Source: Clostridia bacterium (GTDB taxonomy: Bacteria > Bacillota > Clostridia > TANB77 > UBA1234). Taken from it: a stretch of 64,000 bases of DNA. Under the pieces are notes generated by a model that had not been told where the DNA came from, made no database searches, and was given only the letters and a program-made list of their open reading frames with translations. The stretch lies in assembly GCA_017521465.1 (NCBI GenBank), contig JAFXCN010000020.1:5797-69796 (forward strand), in the 5' to 3' direction. Made by a program: the position numbers and the translations under genes. Below are positions 4,924 through 61,767 of the stretch, one piece after another. Each line of letters opens with the position of its first letter. Position 1 is the stretch's first letter.

Positions 4924-5170
4924 ACGTCCGTCCAGTGAACACTTTGTGTCGGACAGAAAAATTCAGTCAGCGCACACTTTGTGTCGGACAGAAAAATTCA
5001 GTCAGTGAACATTTGTGTCGGACAGAAAAATTCAGCCAGCGCACACTTTGCGTCGGACAGAAAAATTCAGCCAGCGCACACTTTGCGTCGGACAGAAAAA
5101 TTCAGCCAGCGCACACTTTGCGTCGGACAGAAAAATTCAGTCAGTGAACATTTGTGTCGGACAGAAACTG
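4924..5170. repeat. tandem array of about 7 copies of a 34-35 bp unit (core GTCGGACAGAAAAATTCAG..CACACTTTG)
   Basis: Measured period is 35 bp (e.g. GCACAC at 5041, 5076, 5111). Two unit variants are present (CAGCGCACACTTTG and CAGTGAACATTTG). There are no unique spacers. Confidence 0.9.
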
Positions 5171-20400: not shown

Positions 20401-22236
20401 TCGTTTGAAGGTGGCGGTGGAGGCGGTGGCGATGGAGTTCGTATAGACTTTGCAACCACAGCATTATTTGACACTGTTTATACCGATGAAAATGGTGTTG
20501 CAGAATATGAAGTAAAACTTCCGGACAACATTACTACATGGAATTTGAATGTAGAAGCTACAACTAAAGATTATAGAGCTACATCTATAGATAAAGATAT
20601 TGTTGTTACCTTGCCATTCTTTTCAACTGCAGTTATGAATGAAAAATATTTGGTGGGAGAAACACCAAGTGTAAGCATTAGAAGTAATGGTACAGATGTA
20701 AAAACAGGTGATAAAGTTACATATGATGTGACTATAACGGATACAAATAATAAGATTACGAAATTTACTAAAGAATCTGAAATAGGAAAATATTTAAATA
20801 TTTCGTTGGGCAAACTTGAAAGGGGAGAATATACTCTTCTCGTGAAAGCTAGTTGTAATGGGTTGACAGATGCTTTCGAAAGAACTATAGAAGCGGTTAA
20901 CACTTTACAAGAAACAACAAATACAACACCATGTGATTTGATTAAAGGCGAAAAGATTAGTGTGGATAAGGGAAGCGGTGTAGTATATCTATATAACGCA
21001 GATATAGAAAAAATCTTTGATGATTTAGTGAAATTATCAATGTTACCAAGAGTTAGAAACGATCAAAAGGTTATATCATATATGACAGACAATCTTTGGA
21101 GAAAATTGCAAAATATAGATGCGCCAGCTGATAAGCCATATATAAATACATATAATGGAATAGAATTAATTGAAGATTTTTCGAATAAAGATTCATTATT
21201 AACAGCCAAAATTGTTTCGACAGGATATTTTGCAGAATCGAAATCACAAGATATCATAAAATATTTTAAAAATATTATTAAAAACGATGATATTGATATT
21301 AGAGAAAAACTATATGCATATTGGGGATTGGCAGCATTAAAAGAGCCAGTGTTAAATGATATAAAATTACTTGATTCAGAATTTGCATATATGGATAGTT
21401 ACGAAAAAGCTATAGTTGGTTTGGCATATGCTGATATAGGCGATTATGTGAGTGCAAACAAAATTTTTGATGAACTAATTTTGCTTGCTGATCAAGCGTC
21501 AAACGAAACATATGAGTATATAACAATGTTAGCATTTAAACTAAATAGGCAAGAAAGAGAAAACTTATATGATAAATATCTTTCGCTAAATAGAGAATCA
21601 GAATATTCGAATTTTGTAAAATTATTTAGAATACAAAACGAAGTGCAAAATAATGTTGAAGATGCGTATGTAAATTTAGAAGTAAATGGCGAAGAAAAGA
21701 AAATTGATATTAAAGGAATCAATATAGAAAGCTTTGCATTTACATATAAAGATGAGATAAAAATAAAAGACAAGAGCGACAATCTTCTTTCAAGATTTAG
21801 AAGAACAGAAGAAATAACTTCTAAAAATGCACCAAAAATAAATGCGATTTCGAAAACATATATAGTTAATGGTAAAGAAAGTAATACTTTTAAAATGGGA
21901 GATATGGTTACTGTTACAATAAAACTTGATTATAATGAATTGGCAAAAGAAAATATACCATATCTATATACGGTAGAAGATGTAATGCCAAACTGTTTCA
22001 AATATTCTTATGAAGAAGATTATGACTATGAACATTTAAAAGTAGATTCGCCATATAAAAAAGACGGACAAAAATTATATTTCTATGTTCATAAATGTAA
22101 CGAAGGTGAACAATACATCTCATATACTGCTATAGCAACTGCGAAAGGTGAATTCGTTTCAGATGGGGTAATACTTAAAAATACAGAAAACAAAGTAATA
22201 GATTATCACAAAATAGATAATATAATTGTAGAATAA
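17470..22236 (+). CDS. alpha-2-macroglobulin-family (MG-domain) giant protein, N-terminally membrane anchored
   Basis: 1588 aa with N-terminal TM. A2M-family signature FATTALFDTVYTDENG...LPDNITTWNLNVEATT...LPFFSTAVMNEKYLVGE. A run of 7 Gly precedes it. Confidence 0.6.
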   Translation: MKKKIIISFILICIIVALIAFFIHNQNNHSIDTKFVNYPTFTVTATSEHNNLIDIDTSFNLKASEGTTLELVQSCFSITPKVEYEINEISKDYYALTLKEELEADKIYNIEYKTDKAPYKWSFQTEKKFNVANFYPGNKEYVLPSTVIEIDFTYIPDDNIREFFAISPNVEGKFLFDERRIRFVPNGKLALATTYEVTILEGYGNKENDEKTTEQSFSFSTTISEKYGTMSNLKKIDFDADKYAFGENQDIYISHYNYYDDNITNYKIAIYQYKNSVDFVEDLMAKEVYGNYPELKPVDLTRLDKIDEKELLATDVVEYEYSWKKAVPIDANLSEGYYIVVITINGIDYYMPLQINNTIAVTQYFDDRLMVWVHDLKTQKPFANAKIKIDDIDMGVTNKEGYCVLTGIELPEDKDLLVQIYAENRTTIYDVITSHNYWSGATSEYDNTYIKFDRDTFKTGEILNTWGFIKDRRNIETKECTLTIKSSSEGAVFEERKITLDEFGTFKAAFDLTNYTSGSYFLSVYANGNQTSEKWFEIRDYETNSYDVSMSLDKKNVRAGEKITCSLNVKLFDGTPLENIRYNAKIEMGDKVTTKEITTDANGDASFEIDTSIYYTYNNIIYGYVRLTPIGIEDQNYLAKSFSVYPHEETFETNGKYIDKEKMYEFNIETYYNDYTNMDEVKKGALTNRTGKVMLTRYRKEKVVTSTYFDENTKTMKENYKIVKHFDGFEELEYTTVDGKATVRYASPYATRDEGVVEYTASFYSEKDWKNISDRWTYVSEEYDANENQVDFLMNNYYLDSDAEPYGCKVGQEINLKVVNVTDDKTPENVYVMYVLKSAKGTEIIYTDKAEYKLKFEKEFGADITIEGFVFDGTTIRALGDYYYDTQYRFSLADEELDMQVEVEFDKEHYKPGDTAKLKIVTKVDDNPVKAAVNLSAVNKEYLAANPQYNGDILYALHNYYNFYIKAESFTHTILSSSFEGGGGGGGDGVRIDFATTALFDTVYTDENGVAEYEVKLPDNITTWNLNVEATTKDYRATSIDKDIVVTLPFFSTAVMNEKYLVGETPSVSIRSNGTDVKTGDKVTYDVTITDTNNKITKFTKESEIGKYLNISLGKLERGEYTLLVKASCNGLTDAFERTIEAVNTLQETTNTTPCDLIKGEKISVDKGSGVVYLYNADIEKIFDDLVKLSMLPRVRNDQKVISYMTDNLWRKLQNIDAPADKPYINTYNGIELIEDFSNKDSLLTAKIVSTGYFAESKSQDIIKYFKNIIKNDDIDIREKLYAYWGLAALKEPVLNDIKLLDSEFAYMDSYEKAIVGLAYADIGDYVSANKIFDELILLADQASNETYEYITMLAFKLNRQERENLYDKYLSLNRESEYSNFVKLFRIQNEVQNNVEDAYVNLEVNGEEKKIDIKGINIESFAFTYKDEIKIKDKSDNLLSRFRRTEEITSKNAPKINAISKTYIVNGKESNTFKMGDMVTVTIKLDYNELAKENIPYLYTVEDVMPNCFKYSYEEDYDYEHLKVDSPYKKDGQKLYFYVHKCNEGEQYISYTAIATAKGEFVSDGVILKNTENKVIDYHKIDNIIVE

Positions 22237-22536: not shown

Positions 22537-23862
22537 ATGATGTTAGTAGGACCTATGAAGAAAAAAATGGTAACAACGGTTATTCTTGTTGTTATTATAT
22601 TGACAGTAATATTTGGGGTTATAGGCTTTTTATTGTTGAGTGGTAAGCAAAATCAAATTGATGAATTAATGAAAAAAGCAGAGGTAGTAGAAAGATATGT
22701 GTTTACAGAGAACTTTCCTGCTGGTCACGTAATTGATGGTGATGATTTGACCTTAGCTGTTGTAAAAGCGGAGAGCACACCAGATAATTCATACAGTTTT
22801 CAAACTGTTGTAACTCCTGGCAATAGAGAGGAAATATACCAATATACAGGAACAACATACAAAACTGGTGAACTTGTAAATACGTTAGAGTTGCTTATAG
22901 GAAGAACATTAAAAATTAATGCATCAAGAAAAACAACATTAACTGATGAAATGCTTGTTCCAATCGATGAAACACCTTCAGACGATTTGAGACTTGAAGA
23001 ATTTACAATGATTAATCTTCCAAGTGATGCGGTTGATGGTGAATATATTGATGTTAGAATAATGTTCCCTACCGGTGAAGACTTTACAGTTTTACTTGGA
23101 AAGAAAATAGAAAAGTATACAGATAGTACAATTTTCTTAAAACTTACTGAAGATGAAATTTTAACTATGGGAAGTGCTATTGTTGAAGCTTATATGTATG
23201 AAGGAACAAAAATATATGCAACAAAATATGTAGATCCTTCTAATCAATTATATAGTTATAAAAAAATAGACTATGTTGCTAAATATAAGGCAGCTGTAGC
23301 TAGTTTGATAGAATCAAAAGAAGAAAAGAATCTTGAAGCGATTATTGAAAAATTCAGAACTGCTAGTCCAGAAGAATATGAAGCCTTATTAGCAGAATAT
23401 CCAGATACATATAGAGAAGAACTTGCAAAAAGACATTCAAATGAAATTAAAGTAATGGAAAGAGACGTTGAAATCAATGAGATTGCACAATACATTGGAT
23501 TGAACGAATATGAAACTGAAGAACTAAGAACAGCAATCGATGAAAAGAATGAAGATGTAATTTCAAAATATGAAAACAAAATTGTAACATCTAAGAAACA
23601 ATTAGCAAGAACTTATCCTGTAAAACCAGAAGTTTTATCTGTAATAAAATCTAATCCGAATATTCTAAAAGAAATTAAGGATACTTTTGATGTTACAGCT
23701 CAAATATCAGGCGAAGTTCAAAAATTTGATCCAACATTATATGGAGATGAAAATAGTATTCAAGAAGCATATGAAAAATATGTAGAAAACGTAAAAAATG
23801 AACTTCAAACACAAAAAGATGAAAGAGTAAAATATTTAAATTCATTAATTGCAGGAGAATAA
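22537..23862 (+). CDS. CpaB/RcpC-like pilus assembly protein with long C-terminal helical extension
   Basis: N-terminal TM. SAF-like segment VVERYVFTENFPAGHVIDGDDL. CpaB-like beta-rich region (YIDVRIMFPTGEDFTVLL). C-terminal 200 aa is a charged helical extension. Confidence 0.5.
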   Translation: MMLVGPMKKKMVTTVILVVIILTVIFGVIGFLLLSGKQNQIDELMKKAEVVERYVFTENFPAGHVIDGDDLTLAVVKAESTPDNSYSFQTVVTPGNREEIYQYTGTTYKTGELVNTLELLIGRTLKINASRKTTLTDEMLVPIDETPSDDLRLEEFTMINLPSDAVDGEYIDVRIMFPTGEDFTVLLGKKIEKYTDSTIFLKLTEDEILTMGSAIVEAYMYEGTKIYATKYVDPSNQLYSYKKIDYVAKYKAAVASLIESKEEKNLEAIIEKFRTASPEEYEALLAEYPDTYREELAKRHSNEIKVMERDVEINEIAQYIGLNEYETEELRTAIDEKNEDVISKYENKIVTSKKQLARTYPVKPEVLSVIKSNPNILKEIKDTFDVTAQISGEVQKFDPTLYGDENSIQEAYEKYVENVKNELQTQKDERVKYLNSLIAGE

Positions 23863-23874
23863 AAATAGGAGGAT

Positions 23875-24630
23875 ATGCAAATGAAAAGTATAGGATTTGT
23901 TGGCGAAATGGATAAAACAGGATTACTTTTATGCGTTGGAAAAATGATAGCCTCGCTAGGTGCAAAAGTAATGTTTGTTGATGCTACAAAAGCACAAAAA
24001 ACTAGATATGTAGTTCCACTTGTTATGGATAATGAAACACAAGAACAATATATTACACAACATGATGGAGTTGAAGTTGCTGTAGGATTTAACAATATAC
24101 TTGAGCTAAAAAAATACCTATTATCGAAAGGCGAAGATTTTTCAGAATATGAATATATCTTAATAGATAGTGATAATGAAGAAATGTGTGAAGAATATGA
24201 TATGAAAAGTGCAAACAAATTATTTTTTGTTACAACCTTTGACAAAATGCATTTGGCTAAAGGTTTAGAATTATTGAAATTTGTATGCGCATCAAAAAGA
24301 AGAGAAGATCCAAACGGTTCAGTTAATATTGAAAAAATATTATCATATACGCAAACGAATATTAAAGCAGTTGATGATAGATATATAGAAAGACTAACAG
24401 AAAACTTACCTATTAATTGGGCAACAGAAAAAATAGTTGTATCATATGACGAAGGTGATTTATCAGCCTTTATTCAAAATCAATACAGAAACAAAATAGA
24501 ATTTAGAGATATGACACCACAAACAAAAATAGGTATTATTGATGTTGTTTCTGTGGTTACAGGCGAAGAAAAAACAAGACTTAAAAAAGTTTTAAAAAGT
24601 ATTGAAAAAAATGCAAGATTTATTGGGTAA
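23875..24630 (+). CDS. ParA/MinD-fold protein with degenerate Walker A (TadZ/CpaE-like pseudo-ATPase)
   Basis: IGFVGEMDKTG occupies the place of the deviant Walker A KGGVGKTT. YILIDSD is Walker-B-like. Confidence 0.45.
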   Translation: MQMKSIGFVGEMDKTGLLLCVGKMIASLGAKVMFVDATKAQKTRYVVPLVMDNETQEQYITQHDGVEVAVGFNNILELKKYLLSKGEDFSEYEYILIDSDNEEMCEEYDMKSANKLFFVTTFDKMHLAKGLELLKFVCASKRREDPNGSVNIEKILSYTQTNIKAVDDRYIERLTENLPINWATEKIVVSYDEGDLSAFIQNQYRNKIEFRDMTPQTKIGIIDVVSVVTGEEKTRLKKVLKSIEKNARFIG

Positions 24631-24654
24631 TAGATTGAAAGGGGAGTAACAAAA

Positions 24655-25488
24655 ATGCCAATAGTATCATTTTGGAGTACAGTAGAATCTACTCAAACTT
24701 CTACAACATCTACTGCTGTAGCTGTAGCAAATGCTATAGCTACTAGACCAGATGTAGGATATAAAACACTATTAATGCAAACACACTATAATAATTTTGA
24801 TATGGAAACTTCTTATTACAACATGAATAAAATGTCTTCAAAAGGAAGTCTTGATATCGCAGATACAGGAATAGACGCGTTAGATAGATTGTTAAGAAGT
24901 AATAAATTAACACCTGAAAATATACCAAACTATGCAAAACCAGTTTTAAAAGGCAAATTAGAATTGCTTTATGGTACATTTAAAAATGATAGAGATTCAT
25001 ATGAAAGAGTCTTAGAAACAATGCCTATGATAGTCGACTATGCAAGTCAACTATATGACATGGTATTTGTAGATTTGAATAGAGGTTATGGTAATGCAGC
25101 TATGACCCAAATTCTTCAAAAATCTGATTTAATAGTTTTAACTATGAGCCAGAAAACAGAGGTATTGAAAAAATTATTTAAAGATGTAGAAGATTTAAAA
25201 ATCTTCAAAGAAAAACCAGTAATTTCAGTTATAGGTAGATATGATAGATTCTCAAAATATAATTCAAAGAATATTGCTAGAACATTTAACTATAAGAAAC
25301 CTATATACTGTATACCATACAATACACAATTCTTTGATGCTTGTAATGAAGGAAAAGCTTTGAATTTCTTCGTTGAAAATATGAATGCAGATATTGCAAC
25401 AGATAGAAATGGATATTTTATTTCAGAGGTAAATAAGATATCAAATCAAATTATGGAAGAATTAAAATCGAAATTAGTTGAAAGATAA
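24655..25488 (+). CDS. ParA/MinD-fold protein lacking a P-loop (second TadZ/CpaE-like)
   Basis: IVSFWSTVESTQTSTTSTAVAVANAIA replaces the P-loop. MVFVDLNRGYGN and LIVLTMSQ segments follow the ParA architecture. Confidence 0.45.
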   Translation: MPIVSFWSTVESTQTSTTSTAVAVANAIATRPDVGYKTLLMQTHYNNFDMETSYYNMNKMSSKGSLDIADTGIDALDRLLRSNKLTPENIPNYAKPVLKGKLELLYGTFKNDRDSYERVLETMPMIVDYASQLYDMVFVDLNRGYGNAAMTQILQKSDLIVLTMSQKTEVLKKLFKDVEDLKIFKEKPVISVIGRYDRFSKYNSKNIARTFNYKKPIYCIPYNTQFFDACNEGKALNFFVENMNADIATDRNGYFISEVNKISNQIMEELKSKLVER

Positions 25489-25512
25489 AATGAAAAGAGG
25501 TGATACTCTAAT

Positions 25513-27432
25513 ATGTTTATTAACTATACATTGATAGGCATTTTAATATTTGGTGCAATATTTTTCTTTGCATATATCTTCGTGAAAAAAGATAATACTA
25601 TGTTACCTAAAAACGAACGTGATAGCAGAATGTATACTGTTGAGCAAATGACTAAATTTATTAAAGCGAGACTTGACGAAATAACAAGAACAAACCTTTA
25701 CGATATAGGATTATCTGAAGAAGAATTGAAAAGAAGAAAAAGCAAAAAATATGAACTAAAGAAAGCCTTAAAAGGTTGTACATATGGAGATGTAAACGAT
25801 AAAAAATATATTAAAGAGTTGATATTTGATTTATTACATAGAGAATATGGAGTGAATCAAGTAAATATCACTAATGCTATAGATTTTGATAACGTTGATA
25901 AACTTACAACAATTGATAAGTTTGACATATTGTTATATATGTACAAATTACAATATGGATATAATGCATTAACAGAATTAATAGTGAAATATAACTTAGA
26001 TGATATAAAAACGGTATATGGTTCAACAACTCCATCATATGTAATTACGCCAGAAGAAATTGATGATATTTTTGAAAAAGAATATGATTATCTTTCTTTT
26101 GAAGATAGATTAAATATTTTATCTCAAAGAATATATCAAAATTATAAAGGATTTAGTGTAATTGATGAAATAAGAGATATGAACATAGATGGTATCTCTG
26201 GAGGTGTTTCTGGTCTTCCAGAATCATTTATGTATCAAGTTGCACAACTTGGTGATTATATTAAGCAAACTCAAGAAAAAACTATACCAAGAGCTTACGA
26301 TAGTGTATGGATTTTCTTTAGAGGTAAATCAATCCAAATGGCTTGTTTGTCATTTGGCTCATATGATGAATTAAAGAGAGTATGTCAAAATATTTATAAA
26401 TACAATAATCCAGGACAATTATCAGATACAAATGGATATAAGATTAATGAAATGAAAGACGGTTCCCGTGTCGTTGTTGTTAGACCAAGTATGTCTGAAT
26501 CATGGGCGTTCTTTGTAAGAAAGTTCGACACACCAAATGCCGTTCTTGAAAACTTGATCAAGCAACCAGGAAAAGAATTTGTAATACCAATGCTAAAATT
26601 CTTGGTAAAAGGTGCCAGAGTTACAGCTCTTACTGGTGAACAAGGTTGTGGTAAAACAACAATGCTTATGGCGATGATAAAATATATTTATCCAACTCTA
26701 AACATAAGAGTTCAAGAAACTGCATTCGAGTTACACTTAAGAAAAGTTTATCCAAATAGAAACATATTAACATTTAGAGAGACGGATACAGTTTCAGGAC
26801 AAGAAGGACTTGACCTTCAAAAGAAAACTGACGGTGCTGTTAACATCCTTGGAGAGGTTGCTACTGACGCGGTTGCTGCTTGGATGATTCAGATGGCCCA
26901 AGTTGCTTCAAAATTTACAATCTTTACTCACCATGCTAAAACATTTGAAAATTTAATACTATCTCTTCGTAACTCATTATTGAAGATTGGTATGTTTAAC
27001 AATGAAAAAGTTGCTGAAATACAGGTAGTAAACGTTATGAACTTCGAAGTACATCTAAAAAGAGGTTTCGATGGTTCGAGATTTATAGAAAGAATAACAG
27101 AATGTATTCCGATAAAGGAAAAAAATCCATATACATTTGATCACAGAAATGAAACAACATTAGAAGGGAAATTTGATAAATTTATGGATAATGCAACTCA
27201 CTATTTCCAAAAGATTACAGAAACAGAAACATTCAAAGCTGTTAATATAATTGAATTCCAAGATGGTGAGTATGTAATAAAAAATAGAATTTCAGATGAA
27301 AACATTGCATTAATGAAAGAAAACATGTCTGATGAAGACCAAAAGCTTTTCAAAGAATATTTGGATGAATATTTTGGTGGTGCAGGTGGTTATGTAGCTT
27401 CTAATACAAATAGAAGAATAGTAATTGATTAA
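25513..27432 (+). CDS. CpaF/TadA/VirB11-family secretion ATPase with N-terminal TM anchor and long N-domain
   Basis: Walker A TGEQGCGKTT. Asp/Glu boxes NILGEVATDAV. His box FTHHAKT. N-terminal hydrophobic segment LIGILIFGAIFFFAYIFV. Confidence 0.75.
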   Translation: MFINYTLIGILIFGAIFFFAYIFVKKDNTMLPKNERDSRMYTVEQMTKFIKARLDEITRTNLYDIGLSEEELKRRKSKKYELKKALKGCTYGDVNDKKYIKELIFDLLHREYGVNQVNITNAIDFDNVDKLTTIDKFDILLYMYKLQYGYNALTELIVKYNLDDIKTVYGSTTPSYVITPEEIDDIFEKEYDYLSFEDRLNILSQRIYQNYKGFSVIDEIRDMNIDGISGGVSGLPESFMYQVAQLGDYIKQTQEKTIPRAYDSVWIFFRGKSIQMACLSFGSYDELKRVCQNIYKYNNPGQLSDTNGYKINEMKDGSRVVVVRPSMSESWAFFVRKFDTPNAVLENLIKQPGKEFVIPMLKFLVKGARVTALTGEQGCGKTTMLMAMIKYIYPTLNIRVQETAFELHLRKVYPNRNILTFRETDTVSGQEGLDLQKKTDGAVNILGEVATDAVAAWMIQMAQVASKFTIFTHHAKTFENLILSLRNSLLKIGMFNNEKVAEIQVVNVMNFEVHLKRGFDGSRFIERITECIPIKEKNPYTFDHRNETTLEGKFDKFMDNATHYFQKITETETFKAVNIIEFQDGEYVIKNRISDENIALMKENMSDEDQKLFKEYLDEYFGGAGGYVASNTNRRIVID

Positions 27433-27448
27433 TTAAGGGAGGATTGAT

Positions 27449-38578: not shown

Positions 38579-38744
38579 CTTTGCTCCTCCTTTTTTGTTT
38601 CGTGTTCAACTTTAATTATGTCAAGTGAAATCTAAGGGCCATTCAATAGAATCATCCTTCTTTCTATTTAAATTTCGATTGAATTATATCAAATATCATG
38701 TTTTATGTCAAATTATAGAACTTATCTCCGAGCAAAAATGTCCG

Positions 38745-38860
38745 CTGGCAGGATTTTTTCGTCGGACACAAAACACATGATTTTGGACAATTTATGTCCG
38801 ACGTAAAGTATTCGCTGGGCGGACGTTTGTGTCCGACGAAAAGTGCTTGCCTCGTTTTGT
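38745..38860. repeat. GTCGGACA-family repeat copies in mixed orientation forming a 19-bp inverted repeat
   Basis: TTTTTCGTCGGACACAAAA (38766-38784) and TTTGTGTCCGACGAAAAGT (38836-38854) are inverted. Internal copy ATGTCCGACGTAAAGTATTCGCTGGGCGG. Confidence 0.8.
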
Positions 38861-38893
38861 GCAAAATGTTATCATTATTGTATGGAGGTTTCT

Positions 38894-39913
38894 ATGATTA
38901 GTTATGATGATTTGCCAGAGATTTTAGTTAATTATATGAATTATAATGCTAACTTGAATAGGTCTAAAAATTCAATTAATGAGTATCGTTATGATCTTAC
39001 TAGATTTCTGAAGTATATTAAAGTTTTGAAATTAAAAATAAAGACGAATTCTTTGGATGAGGTTGATATTAATGATGTTGACGAGAAGCTTTTGAATAAA
39101 GTTACTTTGAATGATTTGTATGCGTACATGACTTATTTGCGTGATGAATGTGGTAATTCTGCTACTTCTCGTGCTCGTAAGGTTGCTAGCATTAAAGGTT
39201 TTTTTAGATATTTGCATGTTAAGGCTAAACTTATTGATGATAATCCAGCTAAAGAATTAGAAAGTCCTAAAGTTGGTAAACGTTTGCCGAAGTATTTATC
39301 GCTTACAGAAAGTCAAGAATTGCTTGATAAAGCCAAGTCTGGTGATATTCATATTAGAAGTAAACGCGGAAAATCAGAACAAGATCTTAGTGAGAATCAA
39401 AAGAAGTTATCGGCTCGTGATTTTGCTATGATTACTTTATTTTTAAATTGTGGCATGCGTCTTTCAGAACTTGTTGGAATTAATTTAGAACATATTAAAT
39501 TTGATGAATGCAATTTGACTGTTATAGGAAAAGGAAATAAAGAAAGAACAGTCTACTTAAATAAAGCTTGTATAAATGCTCTTAATGAATATTTAAAAGT
39601 TAGACCTGATATTGATGGCAAAGATAAAAACGCTCTTTTCTTGAGTGAAAGAAAAAAACGTATAAGCAATAGAATGGTTCAAACTACTATTTCGGAATAT
39701 CTTAAAGCGGTTGGCTTAAGTGGTTATTCAACACATAAATTAAGACATACTGCGGCAACGCTTATGTATCAAAATGGTGTTGATGTAAGAGCGCTTCAAG
39801 AAATATTAGGACATGAAAGTATTGGTACAACTGAAATATATACACATGTAGATAATTATCAAATAAGACAAGCGATAGAAAACAATCCGCTTGCTGATTA
39901 TAAAGCAAAATAA
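38894..39913 (+). CDS. tyrosine recombinase, XerD/XerC-like
   Basis: C-terminal catalytic motifs HKLRHTAAT...LGHESIGTTEIYTH. ATG 38894 behind GGAGG. Hairpin terminator 39914-39942. Confidence 0.85.
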   Translation: MISYDDLPEILVNYMNYNANLNRSKNSINEYRYDLTRFLKYIKVLKLKIKTNSLDEVDINDVDEKLLNKVTLNDLYAYMTYLRDECGNSATSRARKVASIKGFFRYLHVKAKLIDDNPAKELESPKVGKRLPKYLSLTESQELLDKAKSGDIHIRSKRGKSEQDLSENQKKLSARDFAMITLFLNCGMRLSELVGINLEHIKFDECNLTVIGKGNKERTVYLNKACINALNEYLKVRPDIDGKDKNALFLSERKKRISNRMVQTTISEYLKAVGLSGYSTHKLRHTAATLMYQNGVDVRALQEILGHESIGTTEIYTHVDNYQIRQAIENNPLADYKAK

Positions 39914-39973
39914 AACTACGGAGAAAACTCCGTAGTTTTTTATACCAAAGAAAAGTTAAATGTATACAAATAT

Positions 39974-40246
39974 TTATACTGTAGGAATTAGTAGCTCCTG
40001 TCCTATGTAAATATCTGAATTGTTTAAATTATTTATTTTCTTTATTTCAAAAATATTTTCATTTATATTTCCATCAAGCGATTTTGCAATGCTCCAAAGT
40101 GTATCTCCATTAGAAACTATAACTTTTTCATATGTTGGTTCTTGATATGAAAAAACTCCTCCGAAAATACAATTAAATATAGAAAACATTAATATAAATA
40201 TTATTGACATTGATATTATAAATCTTGGCATACTCTTTATTCTCAT
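39974..40246 (-). CDS. LysM-domain membrane protein
   Basis: Signal-anchor plus LysM motif VSNGDTLWSIAKSL...IYIGQELLIP. Confidence 0.6.
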   Translation of the reverse strand: MRIKSMPRFIISMSIIFILMFSIFNCIFGGVFSYQEPTYEKVIVSNGDTLWSIAKSLDGNINENIFEIKKINNLNNSDIYIGQELLIPTV

Positions 40247-40445
40247 ATATAACACTCCTTCATCTCTAAAAGAACTCTTGTTCTTATCTATGATTAAATT
40301 ATATGCGAACATTTATTCTTTGTCAACAATTTTCGATAAAAAAACGCAAAAAAATGTTCGCCTTGTTTTGAAGTGAAGAACTAATAATAAAAGGTAAATA
40401 GTAAACGCCAAAAAACGATTGAGATTTCTCTCAATCGTTTTTGTC

Positions 40446-41971: not shown

Positions 41972-42772
41972 TTACTTTCCTCTACAGCCATTAACCCTGA
42001 GCTGGTAGTATATTGCATTCTTGGAAACTCCAAAGTATCGTGCCAGTTCTGTAACATTCCGCTGACCATTATGCCACATATCACAAAGAGCTTTAATCTC
42101 ATTTTCACGCAAACGCTCGCCAGTCTTGGGCCAGTCTTCTTTACTGGACATTTTGGATTGAGAAATCGGTTCGGCACTAGGCCGAGAAGTATTGCCATCT
42201 GTGGTAACAGTAGCCATTTGCTTCATGGATGCACGCTTCTGCTTCTTCTCTTCAGATGAACTGCACTCGGGAATTTTAGATGCCCAACGGCATACAGTTG
42301 CAATACTGACTTCAAATTCAGTAGCAATGTCAGCAATAGGCAGACAGTCGTTCCACATCTGTACGAACCGTTCCAGCTTGCCGGCAAGCTTGTCAGGAAT
42401 AAGCTGTTTAGCACCGATGCGCTTGAACGCTTTCCTCCTGCCATATCCATTCTTATAAGCATAGTTATATACGGAATTCTTCGTGACACCAAGTTGATCG
42501 GCCATCGTCTCGGCAGAGACACCCTCATTCCAGAGCTTCTCGAACAGCTCTTTGTCGATGCGCTTCCTGGTGGACTTTTTGGGCGCTTCAGAAGCCGCTT
42601 CTTCACGAATTTCAACTACCGTATTATCCTTTTTAGAAACATTCACATTAGGTTCAGCAGTGGTAGCATCATCACGATACACCCTGAAAACTACTTCGGT
42701 CGGGCTTGCTTGGATGAAATCAACCTTGATGCCTTCTTCGGCAACAAACCGGAAAGAGAACTCTTTCATTTT
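41972..42772 (-). CDS. GC-rich foreign gene: protein with three helix-turn-helix-like repeats
   Basis: Coding GC about 50% against a 28-30% background. Three copies of a pattern like LW(N/H)xG..V..(I/M)A..(F/L)GV(T/S)KN(S/A)(V/I)Y. Own terminator AGAGCAGAGCAATCTGCTCT followed by T7 at 41944-41968 (minus). Confidence 0.5.
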   Translation of the reverse strand, partial: KMKEFSFRFVAEEGIKVDFIQASPTEVVFRVYRDDATTAEPNVNVSKKDNTVVEIREEAASEAPKKSTRKRIDKELFEKLWNEGVSAETMADQLGVTKNSVYNYAYKNGYGRRKAFKRIGAKQLIPDKLAGKLERFVQMWNDCLPIADIATEFEVSIATVCRWASKIPECSSSEEKKQKRASMKQMATVTTDGNTSRPSAEPISQSKMSSKEDWPKTGERLRENEIKALCDMWHNGQRNVTELARYFGVSKNAIYYQLRVNGCRGK

Positions 42773-42941
42773 TTCCCCTCCTATGGGTTGGTTGGTTGTG
42801 TAGTAAAGTAACGCCATTAACAGATAAGAAAATTATCTCCTTTCCTTAGTTAATAGGTATAAACCAGAGGTATTATATCATAATAAAACAATTATGTAAA
42901 GCAAAAGAGACGAATTTTATGTTCGCCTCTTTTCTATATAT

Positions 42942-45520: not shown

Positions 45521-45545
45521 GTTTGATTATCATTCCAAGGATATG

Positions 45546-45640
45546 TAACGCAGTTCGTTTCCGCAGACGGCCGCTGCGCGGGCGGCAATTCGCCCTTTTC
45601 CGTCAGCGGAAATGTTTCCTTCGGAAACTTAGTTACTCCC
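45546..45640 (+). repeat. GC-rich multi-hairpin repeat element (TAACGCAGTTCG family), copy A
   Basis: TAACGCAGTTCGTTTCCGCAGACGG...CCGTCAGCGGAAATGTTTCCTTCGGAAAC. Shares architecture with the copies at 52860 and 61627. Confidence 0.8.
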
Positions 45641-45649
45641 GGAACTATG

Positions 45650-45700
45650 AGTAAGACATGTAAAAAACAGTCATCAGATAAATCTAATGACTGTTACTTT
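45650..45700 (-). terminator. rho-independent terminator of rnpB
   Basis: Minus strand: CAGTCATTAGATTTATCTGATGACTG followed by TTTTTT. Confidence 0.6.
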
Positions 45701-46046: not shown

Positions 46047-46153
46047 ATAGATATTATACTTTATGTTGCCTAAAAAGTCAATTTGTGTCCACACTTTTCA
46101 CTATTCATTATTCACTAACCAAAAAAGCCGGGGAAATTCCCCCGGCTTTTTGG

Positions 46154-46903: not shown

Positions 46904-47048
46904 AAGATGTTTTCCTCCTCAATCTTTAAGTCTACATAATTGTATCACGTAATGTCGAGAAATACAATATATTTTTGTATGTATCAATACTTCCAAATGA
47001 ACTGCGTTACAATAATGAAAAAACCAGAGATTTCTCCCTGGTTTGGTA

Positions 47049-52769: not shown

Positions 52770-52859
52770 TTTTTTCACCTCGATACCTATTTTACATAAA
52801 AAAGTGCAGAATGTCAATCAAATTTTAGAGTATGTCTGTAACATATTACCGTACGTATC

Positions 52860-52945
52860 AAAGCTTCCGAAGGAAGCTTTTTTCCAGGGCGAAAAAACGG
52901 TTTAGCCCGCGCAGCGGCGCCCTGGGAAAACGAACTGCGTTATAT
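52860..52945 (-). repeat. GC-rich multi-hairpin repeat element, copy C (inverted relative to copy B)
   Basis: The reverse complement matches 61630-61712 with a few substitutions. Contains AAGCTTCCGAAGGAAGCTT (UUCG tetraloop hairpin) followed by T6. Confidence 0.85.
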
Positions 52946-53016
52946 CAATTTGCTATGTTGCTGACATTTCCGGTGTATAAAAAAGTGCCCGCCATGACCT
53001 GGCGGGCGAAGAAAAA

Positions 53017-53313
53017 TTACGCAGTGGCGGCTTCGACTTCCGCACGCAGCGCATCGTTGTCAAAATGAATTTCATTGAGAGAAACAGCCCTCTTCAGGAC
53101 AGCTTCCAGCGAATTCTGCAACTTAATAAACGGTACGAGCAACAGAGACTCGTTCATCTGATACTTTGCAATCTTTGCGGGATCGTCAGAATCCCACCAG
53201 GATACCTTGCCGTACTTGTCCATCACTGCGAGATAGGATTCTTCCTTTTCAGCAGGGACCTGCAGCACATTCCTGACATAATTCCGACGGATAACCAGCA
53301 TACGATCGACCAT
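53017..53313 (-). CDS. GC-rich hypothetical protein
   Basis: 98-aa ORF in a roughly 50% GC segment. GC-rich terminator GCCCGCCAGGTCATGGCGGGC at 52975-53010. Confidence 0.4.
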   Translation of the reverse strand: MVDRMLVIRRNYVRNVLQVPAEKEESYLAVMDKYGKVSWWDSDDPAKIAKYQMNESLLLVPFIKLQNSLEAVLKRAVSLNEIHFDNDALRAEVEAATA

Positions 53314-57375: not shown

Positions 57376-57754
57376 CTGAAAAATCATTCCTTTCTTTATA
57401 TAAATTATTATCTTGTTACTAATTCTTGTTCTCAAACCAAAATTGTTTATTCTCACTAAAACTCATCTTGCTACAACTTCTAACAAAAATATTTAGCTCG
57501 CTACGTGATACGCAAGCGTTTAAAACTGCGCTCGCTACATTTTTGAAGAATTTGTATACTACGCTTCGTAAATCGTTCGAACAAAAAATTTTGTTTTGAG
57601 AATATGTTCCTAATACACCAATAAATTGATTATCATTCCAAATTACTGTAACGCAGTTCGCTAAATCATAGTGAATAACGAATAACTAATAGTGAATAGT
57701 AATGGCTATTCGGATAATTATTAACTATTCACTCTTCACCATTCACTATTCACT

Positions 57755-58010
57755 ATAAAAAATGTCCCTGACATTTTTTATACAATGCCAGGGACGAAAA
57801 TTCTAATTATTTCCGCGGTACCACCCGTGTTCTAATCACAAAGATTAGCTCTCAAAATAGATTAACGCTCTAATCACGTGATAACTCCAATAGCGAAATT
57901 CATTTATATACAGAGCTTAGAGAAACTTTCAGTCGGTGATTTCTCCTTCCTACAAGATACATATAAACTACTAAAAATACCTTCATCGTCACCAATGGAT
58001 ATATATTACT
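57755..58010 (-). ncRNA. T-box riboswitch leader (Phe specifier UUC) for pheST
   Basis: Minus strand: T-box motif AACACGGGTGGTACCGCGG (plus-strand 57813-57831). Terminator GTCCCTG..CAGGGAC followed by T-run (57760-57797). Candidate specifier GAAAGUUUCUC. Confidence 0.7.
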
Positions 58011-58054
58011 CCTTTTTTTGAGAAAAGTCAAGGTTATGTCCGTATAAAAATATA

Positions 58055-58175
58055 CTCTGTGTGAACTTTTGTGTCCGACGTAAAGTGTACGCTGGGTGAA
58101 TTTTTCTGTCGGACATAAATCTTTCGCTAGGAATCATTTTTCAACGGACACAAAAAAGTCGGCATATGGCCGACT
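58055..58175. repeat. GTCGGACA-family repeat copies (fourth locus)
   Basis: TTTTGTGTCCGACGTAAAGTGTACGCTGGGTGAATTTTTCTGTCGGACATAAA. Near-identical to the locus-3 internal copy and to the reverse complement of the array-1 unit. Confidence 0.8.
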
Positions 58176-58413: not shown

Positions 58414-58611
58414 AAAAACACCTCCAGTTTATAGTGTTTTTTATGAGTGAAAAAGTATGATTATTATATCACAAAAGGCTTGAAAATCAAGAAAAACTTA
58501 TCGACAAAAAAGCACGAAATTTACTTTTCACTATTCACTATTAGCTATTCACTTTTGCTTGCAAAAAAAAGGGAGGCCCCGGATTTTACTCCGGGGACCT
58601 CCGCCCTATTT

Positions 58612-59115
58612 TTAAGGTGCCATAGGGGGCACCACCGCGACCAGCCCCTTGTACTGGTCCTGGTATTCCGCCAGTTTGGTAGCCGTGTTGCGCTGCCAGC
58701 GGGCGCGTTCCTTGGTTTTCTTTGCCGTGTTTTCGACGTCAGCGGCAAAGGCCTCTACCTCGTTGCAAAGGAGCTCGAACGCTTCTGCGACGCCAACCTT
58801 GCCCAGGGCGGCAGTAGCAACCGCAGCCTCAGCTTCTTCGCTGTCCAGGAACTTGACGAAATCTTCAATTTCCTTTTCAAGCTTGAGCCACGGCTTTTTC
58901 TTCAGTTGCGCCTCTTTGAGCTTTTCGCCGATGCCCTTGAAAAGGTCAGTGCAGTTGGAGATAATCGCCGGTACAGAGCCTACCAGGGCAAAGGCGGCAA
59001 CAATGAATCCCCAGAAATTCTGGGTCTGGGTCTGCACGTTGGTGAAAACCTTCAGGGCCATGATGGCCAGAACGAAAGTGATAATGGGGTTCAGAACAGA
59101 AAGGGTCTTCTTCAT
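58612..59115 (-). CDS. GC-rich hypothetical membrane protein
   Basis: 167-aa ORF in a segment of about 58% GC. Terminator GGGAGGTCCCCGGAGTAAAATCCGGGGCCTCCC followed by T8 at 58560-58600 (minus). Confidence 0.4.
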   Translation of the reverse strand: MKKTLSVLNPIITFVLAIMALKVFTNVQTQTQNFWGFIVAAFALVGSVPAIISNCTDLFKGIGEKLKEAQLKKKPWLKLEKEIEDFVKFLDSEEAEAAVATAALGKVGVAEAFELLCNEVEAFAADVENTAKKTKERARWQRNTATKLAEYQDQYKGLVAVVPPMAP

Positions 59116-59402: not shown

Positions 59403-59831
59403 TTACTTTTCAGTTTCATCTTCAGATTCAGAAGATTCTTCAGTATCCTCTTCTACTGCATCAGGGTCGCACTCACTAACACACTCATCGCAGCAAGGAC
59501 AATCACATACATCATCTTCTACTTCATCTTCGCACTCACATTCACATTCACAGCAATCGCAAGCTTCGCAATTACACTCACAGTCCTTATCAAGGCCAAG
59601 TTTCTTGTCGATCCACTTTTCAGCCTTGTCAAGAGCAGCTTCACCAAAAATAAGTTCAAACAGTGCAACAATGATGCCAAGTGCAATAACCGCACCGATA
59701 ATCCAGAAAAGACCAATCTCAATGATGTAAAACACTGCGGACAGGATATTCCGTCCAAAGAAGAAATGGACTACGCCGATGAGCAGGCACAGAAGGGTAA
59801 ACGCAAGGGCCTTTTGACGAGACTTAGACAT
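59403..59831 (-). CDS. small membrane protein with Cys-rich acidic C-terminal tail
   Basis: Two TM helices, then DKDCECNCEACDCCECECECEDEVEDDVCDCPCCDECVSECD. GC-rich terminator at 59366-59395. Confidence 0.45.
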   Translation of the reverse strand: MSKSRQKALAFTLLCLLIGVVHFFFGRNILSAVFYIIEIGLFWIIGAVIALGIIVALFELIFGEAALDKAEKWIDKKLGLDKDCECNCEACDCCECECECEDEVEDDVCDCPCCDECVSECDPDAVEEDTEESSESEDETEK

Positions 59832-61590: not shown

Positions 61591-61626
61591 AGTTTCTCCT
61601 TGTAAATTATAATTTGATTTTCATAG

Positions 61627-61715
61627 CAAATTACTCTAACGCAGTTCGTTTTCCCAGGGCGCCGCTGCGCGGGCGAAACCGTTTTTTCGCCCTGGAAAAA
61701 AGCTTCCTGCGGAAG
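61627..61715 (+). repeat. GC-rich multi-hairpin repeat element, copy B; on the minus strand it provides the rpmF terminator
   Basis: TAACGCAGTTCGTTTTCCCAGGGCG..CGCCCTGGAAAAAAGCTTCCTGCGGAAGCT. Minus-strand reading gives AGCTTCC-GCA-GGAAGCT followed by T6 directly after the rpmF stop. Confidence 0.85.
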
Positions 61716-61767
61716 CTGAAATACGCACATATATATGGTGTTCATATATATAAAAAAAAGCAACTAA

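What the first reader, a model, noticed from the sequence alone, without database searches (positions are those of the whole stretch)
52860..52945. GC-rich multi-hairpin repeat element present in direct and inverted copies (also 45546-45640, 61627-61715; fragments near 57649 and 46990)
An element of about 85 bp, TAACGCAGTTCG-TTTTCCCAGGGCG-CCGCTGCGCGGGCG-AAACCG-TTTTTTCGCCCTGGAAAAAAGCTTCC(TTCG/TGCG)GGAAGCT, occurs three times. It is about 65% GC in a 28% GC genome. Copy A differs by compensatory changes that keep the stems (TTTCCGCAGACGG / CCGTCAGCGGAAA versus TTTTCCCAGGGCG / CGCCCTGGAAAA). Terminal hairpins carry UUCG-type tetraloops followed by T-runs. Stem covariation indicates selection on secondary structure. 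So this is a REP/MITE-like element or a family of structured terminator/insulator RNAs. Copies sit next to GC-rich cassettes and RNA genes (rnpB, rpmF).
Basis: seen in the sequence. Interest (0 to 1): 0.6.

Follow-up and report, generated by a model that had tools for sequence, protein, structure and literature searches.

The report
Structured GC-rich intergenic repeat family
This is a real, previously uncatalogued family of about 150-base non-coding repeats with a conserved GC-rich hairpin core, scattered between housekeeping genes of an uncultured gut Clostridia bacterium; it most likely belongs to the ordinary class of selfish or semi-domesticated intergenic repeats, not to a new kind of system.

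Summary
Three full copies (A 45521-45660 +, B 52818-52975 -, C 61609-61745 +) and two truncated copies (57613-57660 +, 46960-47013 -) lie in the window. Fetching more DNA raised this to 12 distinct full copies in two sister species, roughly one per 20 kb.

The unit is longer than reported. It has an AT-rich 5' arm, the motif GTAACGCAGTTCG, a GC-rich core, and an AT-rich tail. The core holds a 13-bp interrupted stem P1 enclosing small hairpins, plus a 6-7 bp hairpin P4. P1 and P4 keep pairing through compensatory changes (92% of cells paired against about 48% when partners are slid).

Three sites are orthologous between the sister species. Site C is empty in the sister, the der-upstream site is empty in a more distant relative, and site B switched hairpin subtype.

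Copies lie in both orientations, most of them right next to intrinsic terminators. They have no consistent promoter, terminator, terminal inverted repeat or target duplication. Rfam, GTDB, JGI, IMG/VR, plasmid and phage searches found no match.

Best reading: a lineage-restricted mobile/repeat sequence (REP/BOX/MITE-like). The terminator, sRNA and tracrRNA-like readings are not supported. Several reader details were off: GC is 52-57%, there is no UUCG tetraloop, and the neighbouring "cassettes" include at least two conserved genes.

The parts
45521..45660 (+). Copy A, full unit (subtype 1): 5' arm, GTAACGCAGTTCG, GC-rich core, tail. It starts right after the rluD stop codon and ends at the A-tract of the bidirectional terminator shared with rnpB.
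   Evidence: covariance-model hit 45543-45632 at 115 bits; orthologous copy in the sister species at L019:15355-15444, 89% identical
45558..45612 (+). Copy A stem P1 (45558-45570 pairs with 45600-45612; A.A mismatch in the middle). It encloses CCGC-UGC-GCGG and GGGCG-loop6-CGCCC.
   Evidence: (I2)
45614..45628 (+). Copy A hairpin P4: GTTTCC-TTC-GGAAAC.
52818..52975 (-). Copy B, full unit (subtype 2 core). It lies between the terminator of the 98-aa ORF and the der promoter (TTGACA-17-TAAAAT).
   Evidence: model hit 52859-52945 at 93.7 bits; the orthologous site in the sister species carries a subtype-1 core; the site is empty in relative L020
52879..52930 (-). Copy B stem P1: 52918-52930 pairs with 52879-52891.
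   Evidence: I2
52861..52879 (-). Copy B hairpin P4: AAGCTTCC-TTC-GGAAGCTT.
61609..61745 (+). Copy C, full unit (subtype 2). It lies antisense between rpmF with its terminator and the DUF512 radical-SAM gene.
   Evidence: model hit 61634-61720 at 91.9 bits; the site is empty in the sister species (L025)
61649..61700 (+). Copy C stem P1: 61649-61661 pairs with 61688-61700.
   Evidence: I4
61701..61717 (+). Copy C hairpin P4: AGCTTCC-TGC-GGAAGCT. It scores as terminator-like only on the minus strand.
57613..57660 (+). Truncated copy F1: 5' arm plus GTAACGCAGTTCG only. The GC core is replaced by TATTCAC heptamer repeats. It lies inside the pheS leader, downstream of the T-box.
   Evidence: the sister species has a full copy at this site (L019:3436-3525)
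46960..47013 (-). Truncated copy F2: core motif GTAACGCAGTTCA joined to ..GGAAG-TATTGATAC tail-like sequence, with no hairpins. It follows the dnaJ-like gene's terminator.
   Evidence: absent at this site in the sister species

Best explanation
The element belongs to a lineage-restricted family of non-coding intergenic repeats. It fits the class that Breaker's group calls 'mobile/repeat sequence candidates', which includes REP/REPIN, BOX and MITE-like elements.

Anatomy:
- Each unit is about 140-160 nt and modular.
- An AT-rich 5' arm has the consensus ACACCGGAAATTTGATTATCATTCCAAATTA.
- Next comes the junction motif CTGTAACGCAGTTCG.
- The GC-rich core folds, as single-stranded DNA or RNA, into a 13-bp interrupted stem (P1). 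P1 closes a small junction with CCGC/GCGG and GGGCG/CGCCC hairpins.
- A separate 6-7 bp hairpin (P4) and an AT-rich tail (TTCG-ATACGCACGGAAATAT...) follow.

Shown:
- Copies are multiplied within the genome at about one per 20 kb.
- They lie in either orientation in spacers, most of them directly against intrinsic terminators.
- They are mostly inherited vertically (three orthologous sites in two sister species).
- They also differ in presence between lineages, exchange sequence with one another, and recombine with other repeat modules at the GTTCG junction.
- Base pairing of P1 and P4 is kept through compensatory changes.

Inferred:
- The folded GC core is the part recognised by whatever copies or moves the unit. 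This would be a trans-acting DNA enzyme not encoded in the about 150 kb examined, acting on a hairpin in single-stranded DNA as HUH/RAYT-type enzymes do. Alternatively, spread is by recombination-based copying.
- Effects on neighbouring transcripts (extra structure in 3' or 5' untranslated regions) are by-products that the host tolerates.
For: Multi-copy and dispersed:
- Three full and two partial copies lie in the window.
- A fourth copy lies 6 kb left of the window (L027:2687-2776).
- Three more full copies and a chimera lie in another 20-kb region from the same samples (L030). Single copies lie in L036 and L037.
- Metagenome contigs break inside copies (L011, L012, L028).

Orientation and position:
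- About 7 copies are co-directional and 4 antisense to neighbouring genes.
- Most sites lie within 0-15 nt of a terminator hairpin.

Presence and absence:
- Site C is empty in the sister species.
- The der-upstream site is empty in L020.
- The model found no copy in the two relatives it was run on, L020 and L023 at 21 kb each, nor in L026. In L020 the T-box-to-pheS spacer is 69 nt.

Exchange between copies:
- Site B has a subtype-2 core in the window but subtype 1 in the sister, with identical flanks.
- Subtype 2 occurs at three loci.
- The arm plus core motif is joined to heptamer repeats (F1) or to 35-nt-repeat DNA (L030:2284-2372).

Structure:
- 92.5% of cells are paired, against 43-53% when partners are slid by 1-3 columns.
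- 9 pairs show double changes; 0 of 500 shuffles reach the covariation score.
- RNAalifold independently recovers P1 and P4.

Category: being multi-copy with inconsistent orientation is the published criterion for mobile/repeat sequence candidates, whose stems also covary and may act as DNA (PMC11109978). Families of repeated stem-loops are common in bacteria (PMC2267715).
Against: - No transposase, integrase or RAYT-like gene was seen near any copy in about 150 kb.
- There are no consistent terminal inverted repeats or target-site duplications.
- Three of the sites are stably orthologous across species whose four-fold degenerate sites are only 64-79% identical. Mobility is therefore low, and a host function cannot be excluded.
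- Whether C was gained in the window lineage or lost in the sister cannot be polarised, because outgroups have a different gene order there.
- Orthologous copies are about as conserved (0.89) as other alignable spacers (0.83-0.90). That neither supports nor excludes selection on the element itself.
Confidence: 0.5

Rival explanations
1. Host-useful cis-acting RNA structure. When transcribed as part of neighbouring messages, the GC-rich fold would act as a barrier to exonucleases, a processing site, or an insulator between transcription units, as proposed for some REP, BOX and Correia copies.
For: - Copies sit at gene ends and next to terminators or promoters.
- A lies in the rluD 3' untranslated region. 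The L019 copy and F1 lie inside the pheS leader, between the T-box and the start codon.
- Stems are kept by compensatory changes.
- Three sites persist across species.
- The 5' arm at site B is identical over 39 nt between species.
Against: - Both orientations occur relative to transcription, so no single RNA strand is consistently made.
- Terminator-like geometry exists only in subtype 2 and only on the reverse strand.
- Thermodynamic z-scores are modest, -1.7 to -3.0, and one copy is +0.6.
- Conservation is no higher than in other spacers.
- The core was lost or replaced at F1 and F2 with the flanking genes still intact in sequence.
Confidence: 0.2
2. Multi-copy trans-acting small RNA or guide-RNA scaffold: a variable AT-rich arm fused to a constant structured scaffold, in the manner of tracrRNA, omega RNA or sRNA families.
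For: - The layout of arm, conserved single-stranded motif and 3' hairpins recalls guide scaffolds.
- Copy B matches the S. pyogenes tracrRNA anti-repeat and nexus at 31 of 37 positions (sequence recalled from memory). This is the top hit of that RNA in the window.
- A, C and D are followed within 25-45 nt by a terminator that works on the forward strand.
- C has a promoter-like site just upstream.
Against: - Window background for the tracrRNA comparison reaches 17 against 19, and copies A and C are at background.
- Rfam gives no hit at E up to 10.
- No Cas9, IscB, TnpB or CRISPR array was seen in about 150 kb.
- No consistent promoter lies upstream of copies.
- Arms are similar between copies rather than variable.
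- B has no terminator before der.
- The proposed pseudoknot between CGCAG and CUGCG is broken in two copies and compensated in only one.
Confidence: 0.1
3. DNA-level binding or structural site for a host protein, for example a nucleoid, topoisomerase or recombinase site near the replication terminus. The palindromes would be kept complementary by templated mutation rather than by any RNA function.
For: - Wobble statistics are symmetric between strands, as expected for duplex or cruciform DNA.
- The window spans a GC-skew switch and holds a Xer-like recombinase.
- Conserved unpaired motifs (GTAACGCAGTTCG, CCGCTGCGCGGGCG) could be protein contacts.
Against: - Copies also occur in other regions (L030, L036, L037), which carry no sign of lying near the terminus.
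- Orientation is mixed on one replichore, unlike polar Ter or KOPS-type sites.
- There is no resemblance to dif or attC architecture, and the recombinase is Xer-like, below the integron-integrase cut-off.
Confidence: 0.1

Closest known systems
Mobile/repeat sequence candidates (MRSC) from GC-rich intergenic-region surveys (Narunsky et al. 2024, PMC11109978)
   Same: GC-rich structured intergenic motif in an AT-rich genome. Many copies per genome, inconsistent orientation to neighbouring genes, and stems supported by covariation. The structure may act as DNA.
   Different: No association with a transposase or integrase gene has been seen so far. The described example (MRSC-65-2) is a single long stem found across phyla. 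This family has a branched core plus a second hairpin and was found in only two sister species.
REP / REPIN / BIME elements of proteobacteria (own knowledge)
   Same: Short imperfect palindromes in spacers next to gene ends and terminators. They occur in both orientations, persist long-term at orthologous sites, are arranged in mosaics with other modules, and have low mobility.
   Different: REPs are 20-40 nt with a conserved 5' GTAG and are tied to a RAYT gene. This unit is about 150 nt, has AT-rich arms, lacks GTAG, and no RAYT gene could be looked for.
BOX elements of Streptococcus pneumoniae (and RUP/SPRITE; own knowledge)
   Same: Firmicute intergenic repeats built from modules (boxA-boxB-boxC) that fold stably. 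They are often co-transcribed with neighbours, and their mechanism of spread is unclear.
   Different: No sequence similarity. The module set here is arm, GC core and tail, with heptamer and 35-nt repeat modules as alternative partners.
MITEs such as Correia (Neisseria) or bcr1 (Bacillus cereus) (own knowledge)
   Same: Non-coding, 100-200 nt, multi-copy, intergenic, with presence/absence differences between relatives and possible effects on transcripts.
   Different: No consistent terminal inverted repeats and no target-site duplication.
GC clusters of yeast mitochondrial genomes (own knowledge)
   Same: GC-rich palindromic units scattered through very AT-rich spacers, with an unknown means of spread.
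   Different: Different domain of life and size; no AT-rich arms; no sequence relation.

Membership tests
MITE | Terminal inverted repeats | tested here: not met
   Only site B has a 14-nt subterminal inverted repeat (86%), weaker in its orthologue. Other copies have none, and the outermost ends are not inverted repeats.
MITE | Target-site duplication flanking each copy | tested here: not met
   No copy-specific flanking duplication was found. The similar CAC(C)GGAAAT strings at both ends are shared between copies, so they are internal to the element. The 12-nt repeat around B is terminator T-run plus promoter spacer.
MITE | Small, non-coding, multi-copy, presence/absence differences between relatives | tested here: met
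   12 distinct full copies. Site C is empty in the sister species and the der site is empty in L020. Compensatory stem changes are not what coding constraint would produce.
MITE | Related autonomous element with a transposase sharing the ends | not testable with these tools
   Only about 150 kb of the host genomes could be reached, and no transposase lies in it.
REP/REPIN (RAYT-associated) | Imperfect palindrome forming a hairpin | tested here: met
   P1 is 13 bp with an A.A mismatch or a bulge.
REP/REPIN (RAYT-associated) | Conserved GTAG at the 5' end of the palindrome | tested here: not met
   The conserved 5' motif is GTAACGCAGTTCG. GTAG appears in one copy only, by substitution.
REP/REPIN (RAYT-associated) | A RAYT (IS200-like Y1) gene in the genome, flanked by copies | not testable with these tools
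   The whole genome was not available.
Intrinsic (Rho-independent) terminator | GC-rich hairpin directly followed by a U-tract on the transcribed strand, as a property of the family | tested here: not met
   Terminator-like only on the reverse strand of subtype-2 copies. Subtype-1 copies have ATTTCC or ATTTTCG there, and the T-run is one strand of P1.
Cas9 tracrRNA | Anti-repeat complementary to a CRISPR repeat, next to cas9 | tested here: not met
   No CRISPR array or Cas9 in the window or in the other host-lineage loci whose gene tables were read. No sequence complementary to the arm was found elsewhere. The whole genome was not available.
Cas9 tracrRNA | Sequence or structure match to known tracrRNAs | tested here: inconclusive
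   B matches the S. pyogenes tracrRNA at 31 of 37 positions (score 19), but window background reaches 17, and A and C are at background. Rfam gives no hit.
Integron attC site | R''/L''...L'/R' architecture with RYYYAAC and GTTRRRY, arrays in one orientation, integron integrase | tested here: not met
   GTAAC...GTTAC occurs only in copy A. Copies are kilobases apart in both orientations. The only tyrosine recombinase is Xer-like (integron-integrase model 84 bits against a cut-off of 265).
Any Rfam 15 family | Covariance-model match | tested here: not met
   No hit at gathering score. At E up to 10 there were only chance-level hits, which differ between copies (Gut-1 at E 0.35 for C; mir-622 for L037).
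Mobile/repeat sequence candidate (PMC11109978) | Multiple copies per genome and inconsistent orientation to neighbouring genes | tested here: met
Mobile/repeat sequence candidate (PMC11109978) | Frequent association with transposase, integrase, nuclease or helicase genes | tested here: not met
   None lies next to any of the 12 copies. The paper describes this association as frequent, not as required.

The most novel reading that the evidence does not exclude
The GC-rich core is a functional structured RNA of a new class, kept by selection in the host. For example, it could be a constant scaffold fused to a variable or semi-variable AT-rich arm that guides a protein partner (a tracrRNA/omega-RNA-like or sRNA-like system spread as many genes), or a small self-processing RNA. 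Under this reading it would not be merely selfish DNA.
Probability: 0.1. Interest if true: 0.75.

Novelty: new member of a known kind. Interest (0 to 1): 0.35.

Why it matters
The family itself appears uncatalogued. It gave no Rfam match. Pattern scans of 185,579 GTDB species representatives, JGI metagenomes and IMG/VR, and BLAST against plasmid and phage records, found no member. The kind of thing it is, a structured intergenic repeat, is well known.

It is useful in three ways:
- It is a clean example of stems kept by compensatory change in a repeat family of an uncultured gut Clostridia lineage.
- It marks where metagenome assemblies of this organism break, since several contigs end inside copies.
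- It shows that essential-gene leaders tolerate such insertions. The pheS leader has grown from 69 nt to about 410 nt downstream of its T-box.

If the minority reading were right (an RNA scaffold with a protein partner), it would be a new RNA class that RNA-seq of the host community could test directly.

Tried and rejected
1. Known RNA families. Rfam at gathering score and at E up to 10 on three copies gave nothing consistent.

2. Public collections.
- A GTDB representative scan gave only chance hits inside genes or spacers of high-GC genomes. They scored 12-26 bits with the model, against 89-115 for true copies.
- Two JGI metagenome scans gave nothing.
- Two IMG/VR scans gave nothing or chance hits.
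- BLAST of one copy each against plasmids and phages gave nothing.
- A literature search for the motif strings gave nothing.

3. tracrRNA idea. It began from a remembered resemblance. The B match is the best in the window but only 2 points above background, and no CRISPR or Cas9 was found, so I rejected it as unsupported.

4. Pseudoknot between CGCAG (5' motif) and CUGCG (junction). It looked promising with six sequences (C-G, U.G, U-A at one pair). With twelve, two copies break it, and the varying base fits the loop of a CCGC/GCGG hairpin instead.

5. attC, dif and Ter-site readings were rejected on architecture, orientation and recombinase type.

6. A long closing stem between arm and tail is seen in copy A only and is not conserved in B or in the A orthologue (by eye from the sequences).

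7. Internal promoter in the arm. The -10-like TAACGC lacks the invariant T, and scans found a promoter-like site only upstream of C.

8. 'Hairpin-less proto-element' at the sister's C site. Its similarity to the arms is within the shuffle range, so the site is simply empty.

9. Strand assignment from wobble pairs gave 5 G.T against 6 A.C cells, which is uninformative.

10. Stronger conservation than other spacers was not found.

11. GC-rich 'cassettes' as cargo. The two checked are conserved syntenic genes.

A trick that did work: I searched the protein database with concatenated frame translations of the core. This found spurious ORFs laid over other copies.

Full report
**Observation**

- GTAACGCAGTTCG, allowing up to 2 mismatches, occurs five times in the window: at 45545, 46998(-), 52931(-), 57648 and 61636. 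Chance would give 0.37, and none of 100 shuffles reached five.
- CCGCTGCGCGGGCG occurs in the three full copies.
- B and C are complementary over 116 nt at 89%.
- The window is 30.9% GC.

**True extent**

Aligning the sites with flanks shows that the repeat is longer than 85 nt. It has four parts.
- An AT-rich 5' arm with consensus ACACCGGAAATTTGATTATCATTCCAAATTA.
- The junction motif CTGTAACGCAGTTCG.
- The GC-rich core.
- A tail, TTCG-ATACGCACGGAAATAT..., often running on to ..AAGACAT.

The two 'fragments' are units that lack the core.
- F1 (57613-57660) keeps the arm and junction motif, then runs into TATTCAC heptamer repeats.
- F2 (46960-47013, minus strand) joins the junction motif to tail-like sequence.

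**Host and relatives**

- Exact-protein look-ups place the window in an uncultured organism. It was assembled repeatedly, at over 99.7% identity, from several ENA/Logan metagenomes.
- Its Der and MurD proteins are 83-89% identical to proteins named 'MAG: Clostridia bacterium'.
- The window contains RNase P class A, T-boxes and sporulation genes.
- A sister species was found (contigs L019 and L025). Der is 98% identical in protein, genes are 86-92% identical in DNA, and four-fold degenerate sites are 64-79% identical.

**More copies**

- The sister has full copies at three orthologous sites: the A site, the B site, and the F1 site inside the pheS leader.
- A covariance model built from six copies found a fourth full copy in the window's own genome. 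It lies 6 kb left of the window, between the carD terminator and a beta-propeller gene (L027:2687-2776).
I searched the protein database with concatenated frame translations of the core. This returned five spurious ORFs laid over other copies.
- Looking up three of those ORFs gave new loci. One is a 20-kb region from the same samples, with three more full copies and one chimera (L030). The others are single copies in L036 and L037.
- In all there are 12 distinct full copies.
- Leaving out the region that was found because it has a copy, the density is about 4 per 83 kb.
- Contigs L011, L012 and L028 end inside copies, as expected for a repeat.

**Structure**

RNAalifold, with no guidance, predicts three helices:
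- the long stem P1, 13 bp, interrupted by an A.A mismatch or a bulge;
- a CCGC/GCGG hairpin stacked on P1;
- the terminal hairpin P4.

Results on the 12-copy alignment:
- 92.5% of cells form standard pairs, against 43-53% when partners are slid by 1-3 columns.
- Nine pairs show changes on both sides.
- No shuffle out of 500 reaches the observed covariation score.
- P1 has six covarying pairs and P4 has two.

Two core subtypes exist.
- Subtype 1 has TTTTCGCAGACGG / CCGTCAGCGAAAA.
- Subtype 2 has TTTTCCCAGGGCG / CGCCCTGGAAAA and is found in window B, window C and L030:238-324.
- The distal half of P1 differs at four pairs between the subtypes, and all four stay complementary.

Between the A orthologues, the two P1 differences are a compensating pair, and the six-base loop of the inner hairpin changes at three positions while its stem stays intact.

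Caveats:
- The alignment was fitted to the model.
- Copies are related, and the subtype swap may be a single event.
- In DNA palindromes, templated mutation can also restore complementarity.
- Wobble counts give no strand preference: 5 G.T against 6 A.C cells.
- Folding energies are only moderately better than shuffles, with z from -1.7 to -3.0, and one decayed copy is at +0.6.
- A pseudoknot between the 5' motif and the junction looked possible with six copies but is broken in two of twelve.
- In register, the P4 loop is UUC or UGC (three bases), not a UUCG tetraloop.

**Context**

Copies lie in spacers in either orientation relative to neighbouring genes, about seven co-directional and four antisense. 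Most sit directly against an intrinsic terminator.
- A, C, D and the sister's pheS-leader copy meet a terminator hairpin with their tail.
- B, F2 and L030:6027 meet the T-run of the upstream gene's terminator with their arm.

In relative L020 the 101-aa ORF's terminator is followed at once by the der promoter. In the window and its sister, about 160 nt of element lies between the two.

A promoter-like site lies upstream of C only. Terminator-like geometry within the element occurs only on the reverse strand of subtype 2, where the T-run is one strand of P1. The terminator, insulator and independent-sRNA readings are therefore not properties of the family.

**Dynamics**

- Site C is empty in the sister species. 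Its 128-nt spacer has no model hit, and its similarity to the element is within the shuffle range.
- Site B carries subtype 2 in the window but subtype 1 in the sister, between flanks that are identical over 39 nt. Copies therefore exchange sequence.
- At F1 the window has lost the core that the sister retains. The pheS leader downstream of its T-box is about 410 nt in the window, 210 nt in the sister and 69 nt in L020.
- The arm plus junction motif also occurs joined to 35-nt-repeat DNA (L030:2284-2372). GTTCG therefore behaves as a module boundary.
- Orthologous copies are 89% identical, much like other alignable spacers at 83-90%. Conservation alone does not single the element out.

**What it is not**

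- There is no Rfam match.
- Scans of GTDB representatives, JGI metagenomes and IMG/VR, and BLAST against plasmids and phages, found no relatives.
- There are no consistent terminal inverted repeats or target duplications.
- No transposase, integron integrase, Cas9, TnpB or IscB was seen in about 150 kb. The only recombinase is Xer-like.
- Copy B resembles the S. pyogenes tracrRNA at 31 of 37 positions. That RNA's sequence came from memory. The match is the best in the window, but background reaches 17 against 19.
- Two of the neighbouring GC-rich genes were checked and are conserved and syntenic, not cassettes.

**Verdict**

This is a real, uncatalogued, lineage-restricted family of modular structured intergenic repeats. 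It meets the published criteria for a 'mobile/repeat sequence candidate', namely many copies and inconsistent orientation, and like those candidates it has covarying stems that could act as DNA (PMC11109978). Such stem-loop repeat families are common in bacteria (PMC2267715).

I commit, at about 50%, to a selfish or semi-domesticated repeat whose folded GC core is what the copying machinery recognises. That machinery was not identified. A cis-acting RNA role (about 20%), a trans-acting RNA (about 10%) and a DNA-binding site (about 10%) remain open.

The family is a new member of a known kind and of moderate interest.

Noticed in passing
window 4932-5167, 33711-33904, 38722-38845, 58034-58165; also L030:2169, 9970, 17634: Tandem arrays of a 35-nt unit containing the palindrome TGTC-N-GACA lie in spacers just upstream of promoters or leaders. 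The TGTCSGAC motif is absent from the two sister-species contigs checked (L019, L025). In L030 and L036 such units lie directly against the left end of GC-hairpin copies, and one chimera joins them to the arm motif.
   Followed up: partly
window 57662-57761, 58527-58568, 46083-46124; L027:2930-2975: Runs of the heptamer AGTGAAT/TATTCAC start right after the U-tract of terminator hairpins. At 57660 they replace the GC core of the truncated copy F1.
   Followed up: partly
window 57787-57995 (-), with pheS starting near 57375: A T-box leader scores below Rfam's gathering score (66 bits, E 4e-14). About 410 nt of assorted repeats separate it from the pheS start codon, including GTAGCGAGC-like repeats at about 57470-57560. 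The same spacer is 210 nt in the sister species and 69 nt in relative L020.
   Followed up: partly
window ~39000-40300; ORF 38843-39913 (+): Cumulative GC skew peaks here and gene orientation switches from plus to minus, so this is a likely replication terminus. A 356-aa Xer-like tyrosine recombinase sits exactly there, preceded by 35-nt repeats. No dif-like site was looked for.
   Followed up: partly
window 41972-42817 (-); L019:18283-19545: A GC-rich (45-50%) gene between pta and ackA encodes a protein made of several helix-turn-helix repeats. The sister species has a longer multi-HTH version at the same place. A protein with tandem HTH modules might bind the tandem DNA repeats, but this was not tested.
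   Followed up: partly
window 53017-53313 (-), 58612-59115 (-), 59403-59831 (-): Small ORFs have much higher GC (43-59%) than the genome. The 98-aa one is conserved in relatives (68% and 51% identity) but matches no Pfam family. The 142-aa one has a Cys- and acidic-rich tail.
   Followed up: partly
window 52931-52967 (-): The arm and junction motif of copy B match the anti-repeat and nexus part of the S. pyogenes tracrRNA at 31 of 37 positions. This is only marginally above the window background.
   Followed up: yes
window 17470-22236 (+) and 22537-32923 (+): A 1588-aa alpha-2-macroglobulin-like protein is followed by a run of large ORFs with no Pfam match. One of them (25513-27432) has weak similarity to a TadA-type secretion ATPase.
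   Followed up: no
L011, L012 (both end at window 52884) and L028 (ends inside L027 copy D): Independent metagenome assemblies break inside copies of the element. The repeat therefore limits the contiguity of this organism's MAGs.
   Followed up: yes
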